A stretch of 50,736 nt of DNA, counting the filler, from Bipalium vagum (Eukaryota), in the NCBI GenBank assembly GCA_037834085.1. It is 3 parts of 3 records of this genome, joined end to end, with 100 filler letters (N's around TTAATTAATTAA, not from the genome) between each part and the next. Parts side by side here need not be neighbours in the genome. Positions count along the whole stretch, not along the records: positions 1 to 16,500 come from JBBMKC010108082.1; 2 more parts are not named here. One strand, 5' to 3'. Position 1 is the stretch's first letter; each line of letters opens with the position of its first letter. Positions 3,163 to 47,222 of the stretch are shown here, in pieces. Below the pieces are notes generated by a model that was not told the origin of the DNA, searched no databases, and worked only from the letters and a program-made list of their open reading frames with translations. The position numbers and the translations under genes were made by a program.

Positions 3163-3468
3163 AAAGAAAGTAACTAATAAAAATAATCTTTTTTAAAATT
3201 AAAAGAAATTAATTACACAAATTAATTTAATTTAATTATTAAAATAAATTTATTAAATTAAATAAATAAATAACACAAAATTTCATTAAGATAAAAATAA
3301 AAATAAAATTAAAATAAAAATAAAGAAAATAACTAATAAAAATAATATTTTTTAAAATTAAAAGAAATTAATAAATAATAATAACAAATAAATTTAATTT
3401 AATTTATAAAATAATTTTATTAAATTAAATAAATAAATAATACAAAATTTCATCAAGACAAAAATTAA
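3163..3468. repeat. Imperfect ~160-bp AT-rich tandem duplication upstream of the lectin gene
   Basis: The segment aaagaaa.taactaataaaaataat.ttttttaaaattaaaagaaattaat...caaaatttcat.aaga.aaaaat occurs at about 3163-3300 and again at about 3322-3468. Confidence 0.75.
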
Positions 3469-3788
3469 GAAACCAGACAATAAGAATATAATATGTAACT
3501 TAAGCTGTTCTAATACCAAAAGGGAATGTGGGAACAGACAATTAAAGCTTGGTTTATTTAATGACATATTTTCATTTAAGTATATACTTTACAGAATTTC
3601 CATAAGCACTCAGGGGACATTTGTTTCTCGAAAACGTTTCAATAGTGAAAAAATATTATAAAATGTTAATGGGCTGAAACTTTCTAACTGTGTTGTCTGA
3701 GTTCCCAAAACCACTTATAAACCCTTCTGGACAAAGGTCGACAATGTTCAAAATCTCCTAATCAGATTAGAAGGTTTTCAGACCCCAA

Positions 3789-3796
3789 TATATAAA
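3789..3796 (+). promoter_or_regulatory. Candidate TATA box of the lectin gene
   Basis: TATATAAA lies about 30-35 nt upstream of the ATG at 3825, in a locally GC-richer context. The background is AT-rich, so a chance match is possible. Confidence 0.4.
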
Positions 3797-3824
3797 TGCA
3801 CAACATTGAGTACCACGAGAAAAT

Positions 3825-6800
3825 ATGGCCACAAACTTCAAATTGATCGTTGCTATTTTCGTTATATTTATTTATGTTGACCTAACCCTCGCAGGTCATG
3901 GTAATTATTATATTTCCGATATTGGCCTAATACGTTTTCCAGATGCGCTGACTGAAGATCAACTGGTTCATTTACCTAAATGCGCCAATTTTACGACAGC
4001 CGTCAGACTTTGTAAAAAGCGGGGCCTGAGTCTTATCAGGATCGATGATGAACAGACCAATGTAAAACCTTTCAATTAATCGGTCCACAATCTATCTTTC
4101 TAATCGCCTTCAGAAAATTGTTTTCCAATTTGCCCAAAGTAAAAAGCTGAACAAATATTGGATAGACGCCACTGATATCGTCGAAGAGGGTGTTTTCCTC
4201 CATAACGATGGCACGAAACTTTCTTACAAGTATGATGTTGACTGGTAATCCTGGGATATGTATTCGTTAAGACGTTGGAGAAAGGGTCAGCCAAACGATA
4301 AAGGAGGAAATCAGGACTGTGCTGTCATTACTAGAGAGTATAAAGGGTTTTGGAGTGATAATAACTGTGAAGATTCGAATGCTGTCATCTGCAGAGAGAG
4401 TAAAGTGTCGCTGGATGACGATCGGTTTTCCGTTCTCCCGGAACGTTTAAGTTTCGAAATGGCTGACAAGCTCTGTAAGAAGAGGAACATGAGCCTGGTC
4501 AGGATTGATGACGCTGAGACTAATGTAAGTCCTCAATTTCTCTTTCAAATTGCAGTTTAAAATGTTCAGCAAGCCGTCCTCAATTATGCTTCAGCAAAAA
4601 AGCTGGTTAATTATTGGATCGATGCGACCGATAAGGACAATGAGGGTAACTTCGTACACATCGATGGTTCGAAACTCGCTTACACGTACGACTTCCTCTG
4701 GCTCTTCGTCGTGGATATTCATTTGGAATCCCTTTATTCAGGAATTGGAAAGGCAACCAGCCGAACAATAAAGGAGGAAATGAGAACTGTGCTCAAAGCG
4801 GGATCGACCTTAATGGGTTTTGGAATGATTTGAACTGCACTGATCCACTCTTTGGAATTTGCAGCACGGCTAAGACGTTATTAAAGCGCGATCAGTTCTC
4901 AATTCTTTCTGAATTCGTCAATTTTGACACGGCCGTCAAGCTCTGTAAGGACAGGGGTATGAGTCTCCTCAGAATTGATGATGCTGAAACAAATGTACCT
5001 ACCCCTTTCTTCTTATGTATTCTCTCTCTATAGATATATTTCTGTTCCCTTTAAGAATCTTGTTCACCAGTACGCCATCAAGAACAAGGTGAAACAGCTT
5101 TGGATAGACGCCAATGACAAAATTAAAGACGGTGAATACGTTCACCTTGACGGAACGAAAGTCGTTTATACGTATCATTTTGATTAAAGACGTTGGTTGA
5201 ACATATTGGTCTTTTTTCAGGAAATGGAACAGAAATCAGCCCGACAATAAAGGAGGAAACGAGAGCTGCATTTATACGGGCATCATTAACGAAGGATTTT
5301 GGAATGATATAAACTGTGCTGCTGCCTTGACCGCGGTTTGCAATACGACCAAAGAACCATTCAAAGACGATCAGTTCTATACCTTACCGGAACCCGTTAC
5401 TTTTGAAATGGCGGTCGACCTTTGTAAGAAGAATGGCATGAACATCATCAGGATTGATGATTCTCACACAAATGTAATAACGTTCAGCTCATCCGTTGAC
5501 AGAATGTCTTTCTAATCACTTCTAGAACCTCGTCTTCAAATATGCCAAAGAGAAGAATTTGCACAAACATTGGATCGATGCCAGCGATAAGGTCCAAGAA
5601 GGTGATTTCGTGCATGTCGATGGGACGAAACTTCACTATTTGTACAGCTTTGATTACCTTTAATAAAGAAATATTCATGTGGGCATTGCCCTGTTCAGCA
5701 ACTGGAACAAAACCGAACCCAACGATAACGCTCATGTACAGAATTGTGTATATAGCGGAGTGTTTCGTCAAGGGATGTGGCATGATTTAGAATGTCATTC
5801 TAAACTGACTGGCATTTGCAATAAGACTAAGGCCTCAATCAACGACGACCCCTTCCATGTTCTACCGAAACCTGCAGATTTTGACACAGTGGTCAACCTC
5901 TGCAAGGAGAAGGGAATGACTCTCATCAGGATCGATGATGCCCAAACAAATGTAAAACATCTCTCTTCAAAGTATTCTCGATTGATAAACTTCTACTAAC
6001 CTTTAGGAGCTTGTTTACCAATATGCCAAGAAGAATAATTTGGACAAACATTGGATTGACGCGAATGACAAGACGAACGAGAGACAGTTCGTACATGTCG
6101 ATGGGACAGGACTCCATTACTTGTACAGCTTTCAATACCTTTAGTAAAGATATATTTATTTGGAATCGCCATGTTCAGCAACTGGAACAAAACCGAACCC
6201 AGCGATAGGTCTCACGGAGAGAATTGCGTATATAGCGGAGCATTTCGACAAGGGTTGTGGCATGACTTTGGATGCAATGCCAGAATGTTTGGAATCTGCA
6301 ATAAGACTAAGATATCAGTCAATGAAGACCCTTTCTACATTTTACCGGAACGTGTTGGTTTTGATACAGCAGTCAGGCTTTGTAACGAAAAGGGCATGAG
6401 TCTTATCAGGATCGACGATGCTCACACAAATGTAATAATACTCCGTTCATGCGTTCTCGACGAACCTTTTTAATCACTTCTAGAAACTTTTTCATCAATA
6501 TTCCATAAAGAAGAACTTGGACGAGCATTGGATCGATGCCAGTGACAAAAACAAAGATGGTGTATTCGTTCATTCTGATGGTACCATGGTCACTTACACG
6601 TACATTTTTATTGTTTTATAATCATTAATATTTACGTCAAATCGTTGGGATCAGCAACTGGGCAAAATCTCAACCAGATAAGAGGGGTGGAATTGAGGAC
6701 TGCGTATTCAGTGGAACTCGCAGAGAAGGGCTTTGGCACGATAGAATTTGTGGTAATCCCTTGTTCGGAGTGTGCAATAAGACTAAAGCACCGATCCATA

Positions 6801-9620
6801 ATGATCAGTTCTTGGTTCTTCCGAGTCTTGTGGATTTTGACACAGCGGTCAACCTGTGTAAGGAGAAGGGAATGAGTCTCATCAGGATCGATGATGCCCA
6901 AACAAATGTAAAACATCTCTCTGCAAAGTATTCTCGATTGATAAAAGTCTAATAACCTTTAGGAGCTTGTTTACCAATATGCCAAGAAGAATAATTTGGA
7001 CAGACATTGGATTGACGCGAATGACAAGACGAACGAGAGACAGTTTGTACATGTCGATGGGACAGGGCTCCATTACTTGTACAGCTTTCATTACCTTTAG
7101 TAAAGATATATTTATTTGGAATCGCCCTGTTCAGCAACTGGAACAAAACCGAACCCAGCGATAGGTCTCACGGAGAGAATTGCGTATATAGCGGAGCATT
7201 TCGACAAGGGTTGTGGCATGACTTTGGATGCAATGCCAGAATGTTTGGAATCTGCAATAAGACTAAGATATCAGTCAATGAAGACCCTTTCTACATTTTA
7301 CCGGAACGTGTTGGTTTTGATACAGCAGTCAGGCTTTGTAACGAAAAGGGCATGAGTCTTATCAGGATCGACGATGCTCACACAAATGTAATAATACTCC
7401 GTTCATGCGTTCTCGACGAACCTTTTTAATCACTTCTAGAAACTTTTTCATCAATATTCCATAAAGAAGAACTTGGACGAGCATTGGATCGATGCCAGTG
7501 ACAAAAACAAAGATGGTGTATTCGTTCATTCTGATGGTACCATGGTCACTTACACGTACATTTTTATTGTTTTATAATCATTAATATTTACGTCAAATCG
7601 TTGGGATCAGCAACTGGGCAAAATCTCAACCAGATAAGAGGGGTGGAATTGAGGACTGCGTATTCAGTGGAACTCGCAGAGAAGGGCTTTGGCACGATAG
7701 AATTTGTGGTAATCCCTTGTTCGGAGTGTGCAATAAGACTAAAGCACCGATCCATAATGATCAGTTCTTGGTTCTTCCGAGTCTTGTGGATTTTGACACA
7801 GCGGTCAACCTGTGTAAGGAGAGGGGAATGAGCCTGATAAGGATCGATAATGTTCATACAAATGTAACACATCTCTCTTCAAAGTGATCAGAATATATGT
7901 CTTCTAATAACCTTTAGGAGCTTGTTTACCAATATGCCAGACAGAATAATTTGACACGACATTGGATAGATGCCAATGATAAGGTCCAAGAACGAGACTT
8001 CGTACATGTGGATGGGACAAAACCGCGTTATTTGTACAGCTTTTGTTACCTTTAATAAATGATTGTTTATTTGAAATCTCCATGTTCAGGAACTGGAACA
8101 AAGGCGAGCCCAACGATAAGGGTCATGTACAGAATTGTGTATATAGCGGGACAGAGCGTCACGGATTGTGGCATGATTTTATGTGCCATGCCAAAATGTT
8201 CGGAATCTGCAATAAGACTAAAGGGCCCCTCAATGATGACCCCTTCTATGTTCTACCGAAACGTGTTGGTTTTGACACAGCAGTCAGGCTTTGCAACGAA
8301 AATGGCATGAGTCTCATCAGGATCGATGATGCTCACACAAATGTAGGACTCCTCGCTTTATTTACTCTTTCAATATTTACATTTCTCACAACCCTTAGAA
8401 CCTTGTTCACCAATATTCCAAAAGAAAGAACGTGAGCCAACATTGGATTGATGCAAATGACAAAATCAAGGAGGGCGAGTACGTCCACATCGATGGAACA
8501 AAACTGTCTTACATGTACAACTTGGATTTTACCTTTTGTCAGTACTTGTTTTTAATTTGAAATGACCTTGTTCAGAAACTGGAACGCAAATGAACCAAGT
8601 GATCGAACTCACATTGAAAACTGCTTATATACCGGAACGGACCGTAGAGGGTTTTGGAACGACAGGAACTGCAGTGATCCGATGTTTGTAATTTGCAATA
8701 GAACGGAACCATTCCTAAACGACAGTCGGTTTTTTGTCCTGCCAGAACTTGTCGACTTCCCAACCGCCGTCCGACAGTGTCAGGAGAAAGGTATGACTCT
8801 GACGAGGATTGACGACCCTGAGACAAACGTAAAACATCTTTCGGTTTTCGAGTTTTCTATATCTCTCAACTGGCTTTAGAAAGTGGTCCTCGACTTTTCC
8901 TTAAAAAAACGGTTGTCGCATTACTGGATTGACAAAACCAAAGAGACAGAACTAGCTCAGATGAATGGCAGCTCGGTTGCTTATACGTAAAACGTTGCTT
9001 GTCTTCATGGTAAATATTTTTGGGAAAATTCTTCGTTTAGCAACTGGTATCCAAAACAAGAAATTCAACCGAAACAAAGTTGTGTGATCAGTGGAATTGG
9101 TTTGAAGGGTCTCTGGTTTAAGGTAACATGTTTGGCGAAATCTTATGGCATCTGCAATGTAACAGCTCCACCACCCGTTGCCAAACAGCTTCCTGACGCA
9201 CCGAAAACGTTCGACTATTCCACGGTCATGAGACTTTGCAAGGAGAAAGGTAATAACCTAATCAGACTCGACCAAGGAGATCTGAAAGTAAAAATGATTT
9301 TCGTTCTTTGTTTTTGTGAAAACGTTGATAGGACTTTATGTTCTTCGATGATTTGAACCTGATGAGAATAAACTTGAAATCTGTGAAGACAAAGATTGAA
9401 AGGATAACCAACGATGACAGCCTTCTCATTTTCAAGTATGATTGTGATCCTTTTCGATGGCTTTGATCGAAATGATTTCAGCAGTGAGAATGGTTCGTTC
9501 GGTCCGGAAAATGAAAGGGGCGATGAGAATTTATCAGAGATTTTAAGATTTAAGAATGAAATCCTGAAATATTTGAAGCTGGAAGGGGATACATATGTGG
9601 TCTGTTATGCAGATGAATAA
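3825..9620 (+). CDS. Secreted multi-domain C-type lectin, 12 tandem CTLDs (10 canonical, 2 degenerate), ~1493 aa, 26 exons
   Basis: All introns are GT-AG, 42-61 nt, and the frame is open throughout. Exons: 3825-3900, 3943-4061, 4114-4229, 4272-4524, 4570-4685, 4742-4994, 5056-5171, 5221-5473, 5526-5641, 5699-5951, 6007-6122, 6179-6431, 6484-6599, 6655-6907, 6963-7078, 7135-7387, 7440-7555, 7611-7863, 7918-8033, 8090-8342, 8399-8514, 8576-8828, 8880-8986, 9041-9287, 9332-9435, 9482-9620 (sum 4482 nt). Signal peptide MATNFKLIVAIFVIFIYVDLTLA. Each domain has F..A...C...G..L..I, WID, W...(E/Q)P(N/D/S), C, W(N/H/S)D..C, C. No TM segment. AATAAA overlaps the stop codon. Confidence 0.93.
5907..7818 (+). 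repeat. Near-identical 956-bp direct tandem duplication (two lectin modules) inside the lectin gene
   Basis: About 5907-6862 matches about 6863-7818. ORF-track translations at offset 956 are identical or nearly so (e.g. 6160/7116, 6645/7601), and the introns are included. Confidence 0.95.
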
Positions 9621-10426
9621 ATGAAACTCTCTGACATACGGTGATGTAAAATTATAAAAGATATATCTTTACTTTATTTTCTTTTTGGAAAATAATTGGG
9701 GTTTGTAAAGAAAATGACTTTTTGATTATATTTTTGGGAAGAAATTAAGTTTGGTGACACTATTTGGATATGTAACTATTCAGAGAAACTAAATACCTTC
9801 AAAAAAGTGTATTTCTCTTTCTATATGTTGATGACATTTTTCTTTCTAAAATAATATAAGAGGTAAGAGAGAGAGAGAGAAACAAAATAAATATTCCACT
9901 CGCTGTTAGGCTCAGTGATGCTCAGACAAAGCTCAAATCGCCGCCATACTAACCTTGTAGGCCAAATAAAAAATCTTACTTAAGAATATGATGAATAAAC
10001 TAAGCACAAGAAAATCTTTATTTGTTCCAATTGACTTGTCGCATCGATTCAGCTTCTGTATTTGTTTAACTTTATTGATTAACTTCACACTTAAGCAGGA
10101 TGCTGTTAAAGAGTGTTGTGATCGATGATCATTTGTCGATTCATCTCAGCAAATGTGAAGTCGGCTAAGTTGGTATTGTTAAACAGGAACGCTTTAAACT
10201 TCGTTCAAATCTAAGCTTTAATTACCAAATGTTCATAATTGATCTTTTCAAATGTTCTTTCAAAAACTGAAAATCTCGTGTTATTTTACTGAATTCTGTT
10301 TTAAGTTTAATATTCAATTATGAATAACAGGATTAACAGTTTAAAGTATCGATTGTTTAAACTGTTCGTATTTAAAGAAAATGAGCGAAAAAATAAAAAT
10401 AAGAGATGACGTGAGACCAGTATTCA

Positions 10427-27710: not shown

Positions 27711-29129
27711 ATGAAATCGTTGGATAAATGTCTTATAGCTTTTGTATCCAGCTTGAGCTTTTTTATGACCGGCATCATGGAGACGAGTCTGGTCACAATT
27801 TTGCCAAAGTACCTCAGCAAAAATCAATCCAATGAGAAGAATTTCACCAATATCTTCAATTTGTCGGACAACTCAACTCAAAGATGCTTCTATAGACCCC
27901 AGTATGTTATCATAAGTATGATCTTCATGTCAAAGGGTATCATGCAATTCATTTTCAACTCTATCATTGGAGAGGTTGTTGAAAAAATGGACAAATGCTT
28001 AGTACTATTAATTTCTCAAGCCTTAGGCGTTATTATATCTATAATTTATGGATTCAGTAATTCTATTTTTCTTTATGTTGTCGGTAGGCTAATTGATGGG
28101 TTATTGAACAGTTCAACGTTTATATCAGTAACAGCCCTGGTGGCAACCCTTTTTAAGAATGTTAACGTCAGAGGTTATTATTATGGGTTAGCAAATACTT
28201 TATTTTTCGTTAGCCATTCCTTAGCTCCACTCTACGGAGCTGAGGTGGATACGTTTATTGGGAAATCGGCCGTCTTTTTATTACTTATTCCTTTGTGGTG
28301 TGTGTTGTCAGTTTCCACCATTCTTTTACGTTTTAGAATTAAAAGCAAAAAGGAAAGGTCGAGAAAAAGTATACCAGATAATGTTCTACTTGAGGTAGAC
28401 GAAATATGTTTAGATAACGTTAAAGAACAACATAAGGGAACAGTTGAAGCACCTAATTCAACTATTAATTTGGAAACCAGAGACTTAGCAGCTGGGGAAA
28501 AGAAAGTAAAAAGCACCAAACAAAAACTACTGAACTTCTTAGTCACCTCTTACAAGATGTTGAAAGACCCAAATATCTTTGCATGTCTATTTCAAGTCTT
28601 TCTCATTAATATTACTTTGATCTCATTATCAGCAAATCTGCCGTCTTGGATGGCCTTCGCATTGTGCGCAACAGAGGTTCAACAGGGTATGGTTTGGACA
28701 TTTGGGTTCTGTGGTTATTTGATTAGTGTTTTCATGATAGTAATCATTGTGACTTATGTGCCCAAACTCAAATTATTTTCCCCCATGTTCGGCCATATTG
28801 TTGCTGGAATTCTTTGGATATTGTTGCCATTTTCCAAAGATTGGAAATTCATATTTGTTCCTATTGTTGGAATGTACTTCAGCCTTGGAATTGTTCAACA
28901 ATTTAACATTCCCCTGATCACAGATTTAGCTGATCTCAGATTTCAATCAAACCATGGAATAATGACTTCGGTATTGCAACAGGCACTGACATTTAGTGGA
29001 ATAATTGGAACGTTTTGCAGTGGGTACATTGCCCATCTATTCGGGTTCCGTTCTTTTTCCATTTCTATTGCTATCATCATTTTACTTTGTACTCCAATCT
29101 CATTGGTCCATAGAAAGATATTAAATTAG
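27711..29129 (+). CDS. Intronless MFS transporter, divergent SLC18 (vesicular acetylcholine/monoamine transporter-like), 472 aa
   Basis: About 12 hydrophobic segments and a glycosylated loop after TM1 (NQS, NFT, NLS, NST). Motifs align with SLC18: FMSKGIMQF (FASKAxxQL), LKDPNI (LxDPYI), WM...CATEVQQGMVW, LADLR (LVDxR). Confidence 0.88.
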   Translation: MKSLDKCLIAFVSSLSFFMTGIMETSLVTILPKYLSKNQSNEKNFTNIFNLSDNSTQRCFYRPQYVIISMIFMSKGIMQFIFNSIIGEVVEKMDKCLVLLISQALGVIISIIYGFSNSIFLYVVGRLIDGLLNSSTFISVTALVATLFKNVNVRGYYYGLANTLFFVSHSLAPLYGAEVDTFIGKSAVFLLLIPLWCVLSVSTILLRFRIKSKKERSRKSIPDNVLLEVDEICLDNVKEQHKGTVEAPNSTINLETRDLAAGEKKVKSTKQKLLNFLVTSYKMLKDPNIFACLFQVFLINITLISLSANLPSWMAFALCATEVQQGMVWTFGFCGYLISVFMIVIIVTYVPKLKLFSPMFGHIVAGILWILLPFSKDWKFIFVPIVGMYFSLGIVQQFNIPLITDLADLRFQSNHGIMTSVLQQALTFSGIIGTFCSGYIAHLFGFRSFSISIAIIILLCTPISLVHRKILN

Positions 29130-45788: not shown

Positions 45789-47222
45789 ATGAAACAACAT
45801 GAATTTGGGTATGGACAGTTCTTCGTCAATGTGTTTCTCATCATCATTGTCTTCGACTCGTTTGTTTGTGGTGAATCGAGATTTTTGTCGACTCAACAGC
45901 GAATAAGACAGAAGCTTCTGAATCCGAAAGTCTACAAAAAACAAGAACGTCCCGATGAAGTCAAAACAACAATGGTTAAGGTTTACATGAAAATTTTGGC
46001 GATAGATTCTGTCGACGTTCGACAAATGCAATACAGTACGGATGTCTATCTGCGTCAATCGTGGTTTGATAATAGACTCCGATGGGAAAATATTGAACAG
46101 TTTAAACATTATAATGTCAATATTGTTTCTCCGTCTTTGAAAGACAAAATTTGGCTTCCAGACTTGTTTTTCAGAAATGGTAAGAAAGGTTATATCCATA
46201 ATATGACTACACCGAATTATCTCATGAGAATTCAGCCGAACGGTGAGGTTTTGTATAGTCAAAAACTTACGATGATATTTTCTTGTCAAATGGAACTGCA
46301 GGCGTTCCCAATGGACACTCAAAATTGTGAAATCAATATTGGTAGTTATGGATATACTTTGGAAGAGCTGAAGTTTTATTGGAGAACTTATGAAACAATC
46401 ACAGTTCAAAAAGATCTGAAAATTCCAGAATTTGATACACCTAACGAAATCAAGACAATAGATTGCACAAAAAATTCTGCTACACAAACGGGCAATTATA
46501 CATGCTTGAAGGCCATTTTTCAATTAAACAGGCAATTAGGCTCGTATCTGGCAACAACTTACATCCCGAGCATGCTGATCATAATGGTTTCATGGATGAG
46601 CTTTTGGGTCAGTATTGATGCTGTTCCAGCCAGAATCACACTAGGTCTCCTATCTCTTTTAGGAATCGTGAACATGGCTATTTCTATGTCTACCAGTTTG
46701 CCCAGGGTCAGCTATATTAAGGCGATCGACGTCTGGTTGATTGCTTGCATAATATTTGTGATCGCTGCTTTGGTTGAATTCGGTATCGCAACCTCAGCAA
46801 TAAAAAAGAACAAATTTAAGACTTGGGAAAGCGATGTGTGCAACGTGATCAGAGAGGAAATAACGTTAATGCATACTAATTTTACATTGATAAAATCAGC
46901 AGGTTCAAGTGAAAAAAAAACCAGCAACAAAGTGGGGATTCTGGTCAATGTCCCTCCGAAAAATGTGCCAATTTTACCACCAGGAATCGATATGTTATTT
47001 AGTAAAAACCCCAGTCAAAACGAAGCCTTACTCAAAGAATTAAATGATCGAAATAAAATGTCAAAATTTTCCCTGAAAAAGACAGGTTATGCTAGATCGA
47101 AATCTTCTATCGATTCATCGATCGACAAGTACAGCAGATTTCTATTTCCCACGTGTTTCGCTCTTTACAACTGCTTCTATTGGCTCTATTATATTCGCTT
47201 AGTAAGATATAGGGATGAATAG
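45789..47222 (+). CDS. Intronless Cys-loop ligand-gated chloride channel subunit, GluCl/GlyR-like (probably lophotrochozoan GluCl), 477 aa
   Basis: Signal peptide; WLPDLFF; Cys-loop CQMELQAFPMDTQNC; second disulfide CTKNSATQTGNYTC; M1 YIPSMLIIMVSWMSFW; anion-selective PAR motif; VSYIKAIDVW; M4 IDKYSRFLFP. Confidence 0.95.
   Translation: MKQHEFGYGQFFVNVFLIIIVFDSFVCGESRFLSTQQRIRQKLLNPKVYKKQERPDEVKTTMVKVYMKILAIDSVDVRQMQYSTDVYLRQSWFDNRLRWENIEQFKHYNVNIVSPSLKDKIWLPDLFFRNGKKGYIHNMTTPNYLMRIQPNGEVLYSQKLTMIFSCQMELQAFPMDTQNCEINIGSYGYTLEELKFYWRTYETITVQKDLKIPEFDTPNEIKTIDCTKNSATQTGNYTCLKAIFQLNRQLGSYLATTYIPSMLIIMVSWMSFWVSIDAVPARITLGLLSLLGIVNMAISMSTSLPRVSYIKAIDVWLIACIIFVIAALVEFGIATSAIKKNKFKTWESDVCNVIREEITLMHTNFTLIKSAGSSEKKTSNKVGILVNVPPKNVPILPPGIDMLFSKNPSQNEALLKELNDRNKMSKFSLKKTGYARSKSSIDSSIDKYSRFLFPTCFALYNCFYWLYYIRLVRYRDE

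What the first reader, a model, noticed from the sequence alone, without database searches (positions are those of the whole stretch)
4272..8828. One polypeptide carries a barcode of different sugar-specificity motifs
Seen: domains 1-10 read QPN/WSD, QPN/WND, QPD/WND, EPN/WHD, EPS/WHD, QPD/WHD, EPS/WHD, QPD/WHD, EPN/WHD, EPS/WND. Established: EPN favours mannose/GlcNAc/fucose and QPD favours galactose/GalNAc; QPN, EPS and WHD are invertebrate variants. Most domains keep plausible Ca2+ site-2 ligands, whereas in the mannose-receptor family only a few CTLDs bind sugar. Repeats are 123 aa with almost no linker and there is no TM anchor. Inference: a secreted multivalent, multi-specific glycan cross-linker (agglutinin, mucus or adhesive, or host-interface protein). 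Residues around the motif vary more than the LIRIDD..TN framework.
Basis: partly seen in the sequence, partly recalled or inferred. Interest (0 to 1): 0.7.

Follow-up and report, generated by a model that had tools for sequence, protein, structure and literature searches.

The report
Twelve-domain planarian-type secreted C-type lectin
This flatworm gene is predicted to encode a secreted chain of twelve sugar-binding-type (C-type lectin) domains, closest to known planarian gland lectins, which likely cross-links sugars in mucus; its domains carry different binding-site motifs, but such mixtures are common and do not by themselves show different sugar preferences.

Summary
The ten motif pairs are exactly as listed, but the gene is larger. 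It runs 3825-9620, with 25 predicted exons encoding 1,507 aa: a signal peptide and twelve tandem C-type lectin domains (CTLDs), the last two degenerate, and no membrane anchor. The host is a free-living-type flatworm. The closest named relatives are Girardia tigrina scarf1-3 and lectin 2a-c. They group together in a domain tree (SH-aLRT 99) and share a W-I-D/N signature and likely both intron positions. The 'barcode' reading is weaker than claimed. A recent 956-nt duplication makes D6=D8 and gives D5 and D7 the same site, leaving eight distinct sites. Only 2 of 10 domains keep all five canonical calcium-site ligands, and both EPN domains lack two. EPN and QPD co-occur in 35 of 81 unrelated multi-CTLD hits. 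Published invertebrate lectins often break the motif rule. Site-flanking residues vary no more than other loops (dN/dS 0.26 vs 0.20). Best reading: a long new member of a known planarian gland-lectin family, likely an avidity-based glycan cross-linker. Open lead: a public run holds diverged versions of two central modules, possibly allelic.

The parts
3825..9620 (+). Gene model: 25 exons, 24 GT-AG introns of 42-61 nt, 1,507 aa (about 173 kDa). Each module is split by a phase-0 and a phase-2 intron into 116-nt and 253-nt exons
   Evidence: splicing inferred from consensus sites, open frame and periodicity
3789..3796 (+). TATA-like box 36 nt upstream of the ATG
   Evidence: function inferred
3825..3896 (+). 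Predicted signal peptide (hydrophobic residues about 5-23). An optional in-frame 42-nt intron at 3901-3942 cannot be decided
   Evidence: hydropathy 2.35
3945..4407 (+). D1: QPN, Q193, WSD (3 of 5 site-2 ligands)
   Evidence: Pfam Lectin_C E 6e-9 on its large exon
4408..4877 (+). D2: QPN, E193, WND (5 of 5)
4878..5356 (+). D3: QPD, E193, WND (5 of 5; best galactose-type candidate, no Trp189)
5357..5834 (+). D4: EPN, Q193, WHD (3 of 5); mosaic module
5835..6314 (+). D5: EPS, E193, WHD (3 of 5)
6315..6790 (+). D6: QPD, E193, WHD (4 of 5)
6791..7270 (+). D7: sugar site identical to D5; N-part like D9
7271..7746 (+). D8: codon-identical to D6
7747..8225 (+). D9: EPN, Q193, WHD (3 of 5)
8226..8711 (+). 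D10: EPS, E193, WND (4 of 5)
8712..9170 (+). D11: degenerate CTLD, four cysteines kept, sugar motifs lost (QEI / WFK)
   Evidence: no Pfam hit on its large exon alone
9171..9620 (+). D12: strongly degenerate CTLD-derived end (16-23% identity to the others, two cysteines) and stop codon
5877..7822 (+). Recent internal tandem duplication: unit 956 nt (two modules with introns), about 99% identical
   Evidence: 12 mismatches between 5890 and 6866 at offset 956; none in 6172-6866

Best explanation
A predicted 25-exon flatworm gene encodes a likely secreted chain of twelve tandem C-type lectin domains of the planarian scarf/lectin-2 family, which likely works in gland mucus as a multivalent, calcium-dependent glycan cross-linker. 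Shown by sequence: signal-like N-terminus, no anchor, 123-aa modules with four cysteines, varied site-2 motifs, and growth by unequal crossing-over of a two-exon, 369-nt frame-preserving unit, which left mosaic and duplicated modules. Inferred: gland cells export it, with up to 23 N-glycosylation sites. Up to ten domains bind Ca2+ and terminal sugars weakly. Their short spacing sums these contacts by avidity, linking mucus glycoconjugates to each other, to the surface or to microbes. D11 and D12 are non-binding. The motif differences probably broaden and tune binding (D3 galactose-type leaning) rather than spell a defined mannose/galactose code.
For: Gene model, period and hydropathy. Pfam Lectin_C on 8 of 8 site-bearing exons tested, 5 above the curated cutoff. 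Gap-free alignment to rat MBP-A around EPN and WND. Top per-domain scores go to two unnamed proteins and G. tigrina scarf/lectin 2 (30-40% identity). Domain tree: 11 window, 10 Girardia and 3 unnamed domains form one side of a branch, SH-aLRT 99, against 62 other CTLDs. W-I-D/N in place of W-I-G: 10 of 11 aligned window domains (the other is a gap) and 31 of 31 family domains, against G in 623 and D/N in 12 of 801 outside domains. A 47-aa ORF call in the scarf cluster (P0278) matches scarf2 for exactly the 39 residues of our small exon and stops there, implying the same two intron positions (inferred). Lectin 2 also ends in a degenerate domain. Host is a flatworm outside named parasite clades. 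A review passage places G. tigrina CTLs in mucus glands and body edge (PMC7958881). Lectins were detected in the mucus of two planarians (10.1101/2025.01.09.632098). Mosaic modules.
Against: Splicing, secretion and sugar binding are inferred, none measured. Only 2 of 10 domains keep all five canonical ligands, and WHD (6 of 10 here) is rare elsewhere, 16 of 801. One WHD lectin is calcium-independent. The tree is the quick SH-aLRT tree on 123 columns, with outgroups picked by score, and D12 was left out. The triclad identity of the host is inferred, not shown. Expression site is borrowed from relatives only 30-40% identical, and a D. japonica CTL is instead linked to immunity and wound healing.
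Confidence: 0.72

Rival explanations
1. True specificity barcode: each module type binds a different glycan class (QPD galactose/GalNAc; EPN and EPS mannose/GlcNAc/fucose), and the chain is selected as a multi-specific bridge.
For: Four motif kinds and three WxD variants in one chain. QPD is absent from all 31 family domains in hand. All pairs show dN/dS below 1, so modules are maintained. Site-flanking columns are more variable than all other columns pooled (0.39 vs 0.55, permutation p 0.009). Scallop CfLec-4 domains differ in ligand range (PMC12842671 passage).
Against: Both EPN domains lack Glu193 and Asn205, a state seen in 35 of 359 outside EPN domains. The QPD domains lack Trp189. Invertebrate exceptions to the motif rule are documented: GYL, AiCTL-3, CEL-IV, CEL-I mutants. 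CfLec-3 has three motifs yet overall mannose specificity. dN/dS is 0.26 at the site vs 0.20 elsewhere, with dS near saturation.
Confidence: 0.3
2. Mostly structural mucus or adhesive scaffold: only one to three domains bind sugar, and the rest are spacers or protein-binding modules whose motifs are drifting, as in the mannose-receptor family.
For: 8 of 10 domains lack at least one canonical ligand and D11-D12 have lost the site. Scarf domains also lack Glu193 and Asn205 in most copies. Loop variability equals that of linkers.
Against: All ten keep the x-P-x motif with E/Q first, and Asp206; Asp161 and an acidic residue 165 are kept in 10 of 10. WHD and WSD lectins are reported as calcium-dependent.
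Confidence: 0.25
3. Soluble immune pattern-recognition agglutinin or opsonin, induced by infection, rather than a constitutive mucus component.
For: D. japonica CTL is induced by LPS, peptidoglycan and bacteria. Secreted multi-domain scallop lectins agglutinate microbes. Diverged module versions occur in run X1.
Against: The named closest relatives are reported from glands and body edge, and their role in immunity is called unexplored. I could not test whether the D. japonica protein belongs to this clade. This reading is not exclusive with the best explanation.
Confidence: 0.25
4. Artefact or non-functional array: mis-assembly, foreign DNA, or a pseudogene or several short genes rather than one polypeptide.
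For: The gene is a GC-rich island (coding 43%, introns 34%, rest of window 27%), and 695 nt of the duplication are identical.
Against: One open frame runs across 24 regular GT-AG introns with a single signal peptide. Purifying selection holds between modules. Contigs of run X1 join the gene to both AT-rich flanks with no differences (3411-5717 and 8273-10418; X1 may be the source run). The two copies differ at 12 sites. The nearest relatives are planarian.
Confidence: 0.06

Closest known systems
Girardia tigrina scarf1/2/3 and lectin 2a/b/c (UniRef Q8WSW6, Q8WTP3, Q8WSW7, Q8WSX1, Q8WSX0, Q8WSW9; Shagin et al. 2002, not held; the family name 'multidomain free lectin' is recalled)
   Same: Signal peptide plus only tandem short-form CTLDs, no anchor; 114-124 aa period; W-I-D/N signature; same tree group; likely the same two intron positions; degenerate last domain in lectin 2.
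   Different: 12 domains versus 1-5 in the named members in hand. QPD, QPN and WHD occur here, whereas 25 of 31 family domains are EPN and none is QPD. Identity is only 30-40%, and the window's domains expanded independently.
Bivalve secreted multi-CRD lectins AiCTL-9, CfLec-3, CfLec-4, Cnlec-1
   Same: One soluble chain carrying different site-2 motifs; per-domain differences were tested for CfLec-4 (PMC12842671).
   Different: 3-4 domains. Homology to the window's clade was not tested directly; mixed motifs here are an analogy.
Mannose-receptor family (MRC1, PLA2R, DEC-205) and invertebrate MR-like multi-CTLD proteins
   Same: 8-14 tandem CTLDs; top whole-protein scores. EPN and QPD co-occur in 35 of 81 hits with five or more domains.
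   Different: Longer period (about 145-155 aa), W-I-G motif, mostly a C-terminal hydrophobic anchor, ricin and FN2 domains in MRC1. They fall outside the window's tree group.
Rat mannose-binding protein A (structural reference)
   Same: Gap-free alignment over the EPN loop and WND strand, which fixes the ligand register 185/187/193/205/206.
   Different: A single CRD per chain, made multivalent by collagen trimers (recalled), not by tandem repeats.

Membership tests
C-type lectin-like domain superfamily | Lectin_C profile match | tested here: met
   8 of 8 site-bearing exons tested match PF00059 (5 above the cutoff, as half domains); D11 and D12 exons do not
C-type lectin-like domain superfamily | Four core cysteines (two disulfides) | tested here: met
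   4 Cys in D2-D11, 5 in D1, 2 in D12
Classical Ca2+-dependent CRD | Five site-2 ligands (E/Q185, N/D187, E193, N205, D206) | tested here: inconclusive
   Complete in 2 of 10 (D2, D3), 4 of 5 in 3, 3 of 5 in 5 (ligand list from PMC8235521)
Classical Ca2+-dependent CRD | Measured Ca2+-dependent sugar binding | not testable with these tools
   needs a binding assay
Planarian scarf/lectin-2 family | Signal peptide, only tandem CTLDs with short linkers, no anchor | tested here: met
   features read from the Girardia sequences, since the defining paper is not held
Planarian scarf/lectin-2 family | Domains group with the Girardia domains | tested here: met
   SH-aLRT 99, quick tree, 86 rows, D12 omitted
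Planarian scarf/lectin-2 family | W-I-D/N instead of W-I-G | tested here: met
   10 of 11 aligned window domains, 31 of 31 family domains, 12 of 801 outside; signature derived here, not from a paper
Planarian scarf/lectin-2 family | Shared intron positions | tested here: inconclusive
   ORF call P0278 matches the 39-aa small exon at both ends, but no genomic scarf locus could be fetched
Planarian scarf/lectin-2 family | Expression in gland cells and presence in mucus | not testable with these tools
   reported for relatives
Mannose-receptor family | Ricin and FN2 domains plus a transmembrane anchor | tested here: not met
   CTLD repeats fill residues 41-1507 and there is no anchor

The most novel reading that the evidence does not exclude
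The gene is a recombination-diversified glycan-recognition array. Unequal crossing-over of a frame-preserving two-exon module shuffles sugar-site halves among positions. Alleles within one animal then differ in module number and in the residues flanking the sugar site, giving each flatworm its own repertoire of mucus glycan specificities on one secreted chain. Hints: mosaic modules, a near-identical two-module duplication, and two contigs in run X1 that are diverged, open-frame versions of D5- and D6-type site halves (18 and 13 differences; 9 and 7 residue changes; matching no window domain), while D1-D3 and D10-D12 show no variants. Paralogues explain these contigs equally well.
Probability: 0.17. 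Interest if true: 0.62.

Novelty: new member of a known kind. Interest (0 to 1): 0.3.

Why it matters
It extends a little-studied planarian gland-lectin family to twelve domains and adds QPD, QPN and WHD sites not seen in the named members in hand. Eight related modules on one scaffold are a convenient natural series for testing how far the EPN/QPD rule holds in invertebrates and what His at position 205 does. If the diverged modules are alleles, the gene would be a tractable case of individual variation in flatworm glycan recognition. The general idea of mixed motifs on one secreted chain is already known.

Tried and rejected
No whole genome is held, so paralogues could not be counted. Sequencing runs: one holder, probably the source, and no RNA holder listed. 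Run X1 has no cover at about 7320-7720, the second identical copy; a hole proves nothing. Depth figures (about 14 for variant pieces, 21-25 for unique parts, about 35 for duplicated parts) would fit two alleles, but the tool states depth is no copy number, so I treat this as a hint only. Word-index search with the exon alignment found only two lungfish mannose receptors (2 of 2952 candidates). With the Girardia alignment it found 5 of 7664, adding only lectin 2a as a family member. Two metagenome scans for genomic relatives found none (0 of 87 and 0 of 64 stretches). An AlphaFold model of the stand-in lectin 2b had mean pLDDT 49 and was not used. The ESM Atlas gave only generic Lectin_C clusters. 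A first W-I-D count by regex was confounded and replaced by an alignment-based count. A first chance test had the wrong spacing and was redone. The careful tree did not finish, so the quick tree was used. Positive selection on the binding loops is not supported. Horizontal origin was suggested by GC but rejected, since the relatives are planarian. No other CTLD lies in the window. Shagin 2002 and Zayas 2010 are not held; their text or supplements may already describe longer or QPD-bearing members. Paper searches listed no report of a twelve-domain planarian lectin, but the library is incomplete. Three look-ups of earlier findings were blank.
Full report
Observation. The region is an intron-rich eukaryotic gene, not one ORF. 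Regular GT-AG introns of 42-61 nt interrupt each repeat twice: in phase 0 after the T-N ending the LIRIDD stretch, and in phase 2 just before the N-W that precedes the sugar loop. Joining exons from the ATG at 3825 to the stop at 9618-9620 gives one open frame of 1,507 aa. It has a hydrophobic N-terminus, twelve repeats, ten successive spacings of exactly 123 aa and one of 118, and no later hydrophobic stretch above 1.42. The spaced pattern occurs 10 times in the gene, 0 times in the rest of the window and 0 times in 200 shuffles. Pfam Lectin_C matches 8 of 8 site-bearing exons tested and neither terminal one.

How the array grew. A 116-nt and a 253-nt exon make a 369-nt unit that preserves frame. 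The stretch from about 5877 to 6866 recurs 956 nt downstream at about 99% identity, introns included. So D8 is codon-identical to D6, and D7 has the sugar site of D5. The ten sites are therefore eight distinct ones. Modules are mosaics. D4's first intron is closest to D6/D8 (78%), while its small exon, second intron and C-part are closest to D9, D5 or D7 (79-85%). D10's N-part is closest to D6/D8 (85%). This is the pattern expected from unequal crossing-over (inference).

Host. The intronless chloride-channel ORF at 45789-47222 has named flatworm hits at about 50% and an unnamed hit at 78%. In a FastTree of 50 rows it sits in a set of unnamed sequences outside both named parasitic-flatworm clades and apart from Macrostomum (49 of the 120 listed hits used). 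A free-living flatworm, probably a triclad, is inferred. The gene is GC-richer than its surroundings, but contigs of the one public run holding it join it to both flanks without differences (this may be the source run).

Relatives. A profile of the eleven large exons found 1194 proteins at E up to 0.001, with the best 150 listed. By whole-protein score these are mostly long mannose-receptor-like chains. By per-domain score the best are two unnamed proteins (P0158, P0224) and two clusters named as G. tigrina scarf1/2/3 and lectin 2b/2c; lectin 2a was added. Identity is 30-40%. In a domain tree of 86 rows, the 11 window, 10 Girardia and 3 unnamed domains form one side of a branch with SH-aLRT 99 against 62 others (quick tree, 123 columns, D12 left out, outgroups chosen by score). 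The window's domains are one group within it, so they expanded independently. The usual W-I-G motif is W-I-D/N in 10 of 11 aligned window domains and 31 of 31 family domains, but in only 12 of 801 outside domains. P0278, a 47-aa ORF call in the scarf cluster, is 8 unrelated residues followed by exactly the 39 scarf residues matching our small exon, then a stop. This is what a gene caller would produce from genomic scarf DNA with the same two introns. It is inferred, since no genomic locus could be fetched. Differences: twelve domains against one to five, and QPD, QPN and WHD, whereas 25 of 31 family domains are EPN and none is QPD.

The barcode claim. MBP-A binds Ca2+ and sugar through Glu185, Asn187, Glu193, Asn205 and Asp206 (PMC8235521, passages), and the alignment to MBP-A is gap-free here. 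Only D2 and D3 keep all five; D6, D8 and D10 keep four; D1, D4, D5, D7 and D9 keep three. Both EPN domains have Gln193 and His205. Outside the clade, 265 of 359 EPN domains keep both residues and 35 of 359 keep neither. The QPD domains lack the Trp189 that favours galactose in the MBP-A mutant. In invertebrates the rule often fails. GYL (EPN) does not bind mannose, AiCTL-3 (EPN) binds both sugars, and CfLec-3 has three motifs but mannose specificity (PMC12842671, section 6 and passages). CEL-IV (EPN) binds galactose (PMC10377782, passages). Mixed motifs on one chain are common: EPN and QPD co-occur in 35 of 81 outside proteins with five or more domains, and 12 of 81 carry four or more motif kinds (52 of 123 by a looser regex). 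This sample is biased towards motif-bearing domains. Secreted scallop lectins with different motifs per domain are published. Against: three other surface or linker segments are equally variable (0.39-0.40), and pooled dN/dS is 0.26 vs 0.20 with near-saturated dS (eight distinct domains).

Likely mechanism. Shown: the architecture and family placement. Inferred: secretion from gland cells, weak calcium-dependent binding of terminal sugars at up to ten sites, and summed avidity that cross-links mucus glycoconjugates or traps microbes. The tissue comes from relatives. A review says G. tigrina CTLs are expressed in mucus glands and body edge, and that a D. japonica CTL is induced by bacteria (PMC7958881, passages). 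[quoted passage not shown] The Fugu CTLD paper notes that SCARF2 domains carry Ca/carbohydrate-binding residues (PMC514892, passages). Shagin 2002 and Zayas 2010 were seen only as reference entries; that the proteins are excreted into surface mucus, and the family name, are recalled. Passages of PMC9229212, PMC6534381, PMC13034038 and PMC7840899 were seen and add only context.

Open lead. Run X1 holds two short contigs lying on 6266-6321 and 6693-6764 with 18 and 13 differences. They match no domain of the window better than D5/D7 and D6/D8, and give 9 and 7 residue changes against 5 and 5 synonymous codons, without stops (the extent of the first contig was estimated). The D6-type version keeps QPD, Glu193 and WHD and changes flanking residues. 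The long contigs over D1-D3 and D10-D12 show no differences. Loose-ended contigs at 6551 and 8442-8480 point to further family genes, so allele and paralogue cannot be told apart.

Verdict. This is a new, long member of a known planarian lectin family. Interest 0.3.

Noticed in passing
window 6266-6321 and 6693-6764: Run X1 holds diverged, open-frame versions of the sugar-site halves of D5- and D6-type modules that match no window domain; allele or paralogue.
   Followed up: partly
window 6551 and 8442-8480: Loose-ended contigs of run X1 match short stretches and then diverge, suggesting further members of this lectin family in the genome.
   Followed up: no
window 45789-47222: Intronless Cys-loop chloride channel of the flatworm GluCl type, about 50% identical to named parasite channels and 78% to an unnamed protein.
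   Followed up: partly
window 27711-29129: Intronless major-facilitator (MFS_1) transporter ORF.
   Followed up: no
window 19789-20235: Mariner-type transposase remnant (Transposase_1, E 1.5e-10); similar decayed pieces appear by eye near 1250-1600.
   Followed up: no
window 3700-9620: The gene is a GC-rich island (coding 43%, GC3 48%, introns 34%) in 27% GC surroundings. All 24 introns begin GTA, but only one has the full GTAAGT donor.
   Followed up: partly
window 5728-8180 (D4-D9): His at position 205 (WHD) in six consecutive domains, against 16 of 801 outside domains.
   Followed up: partly
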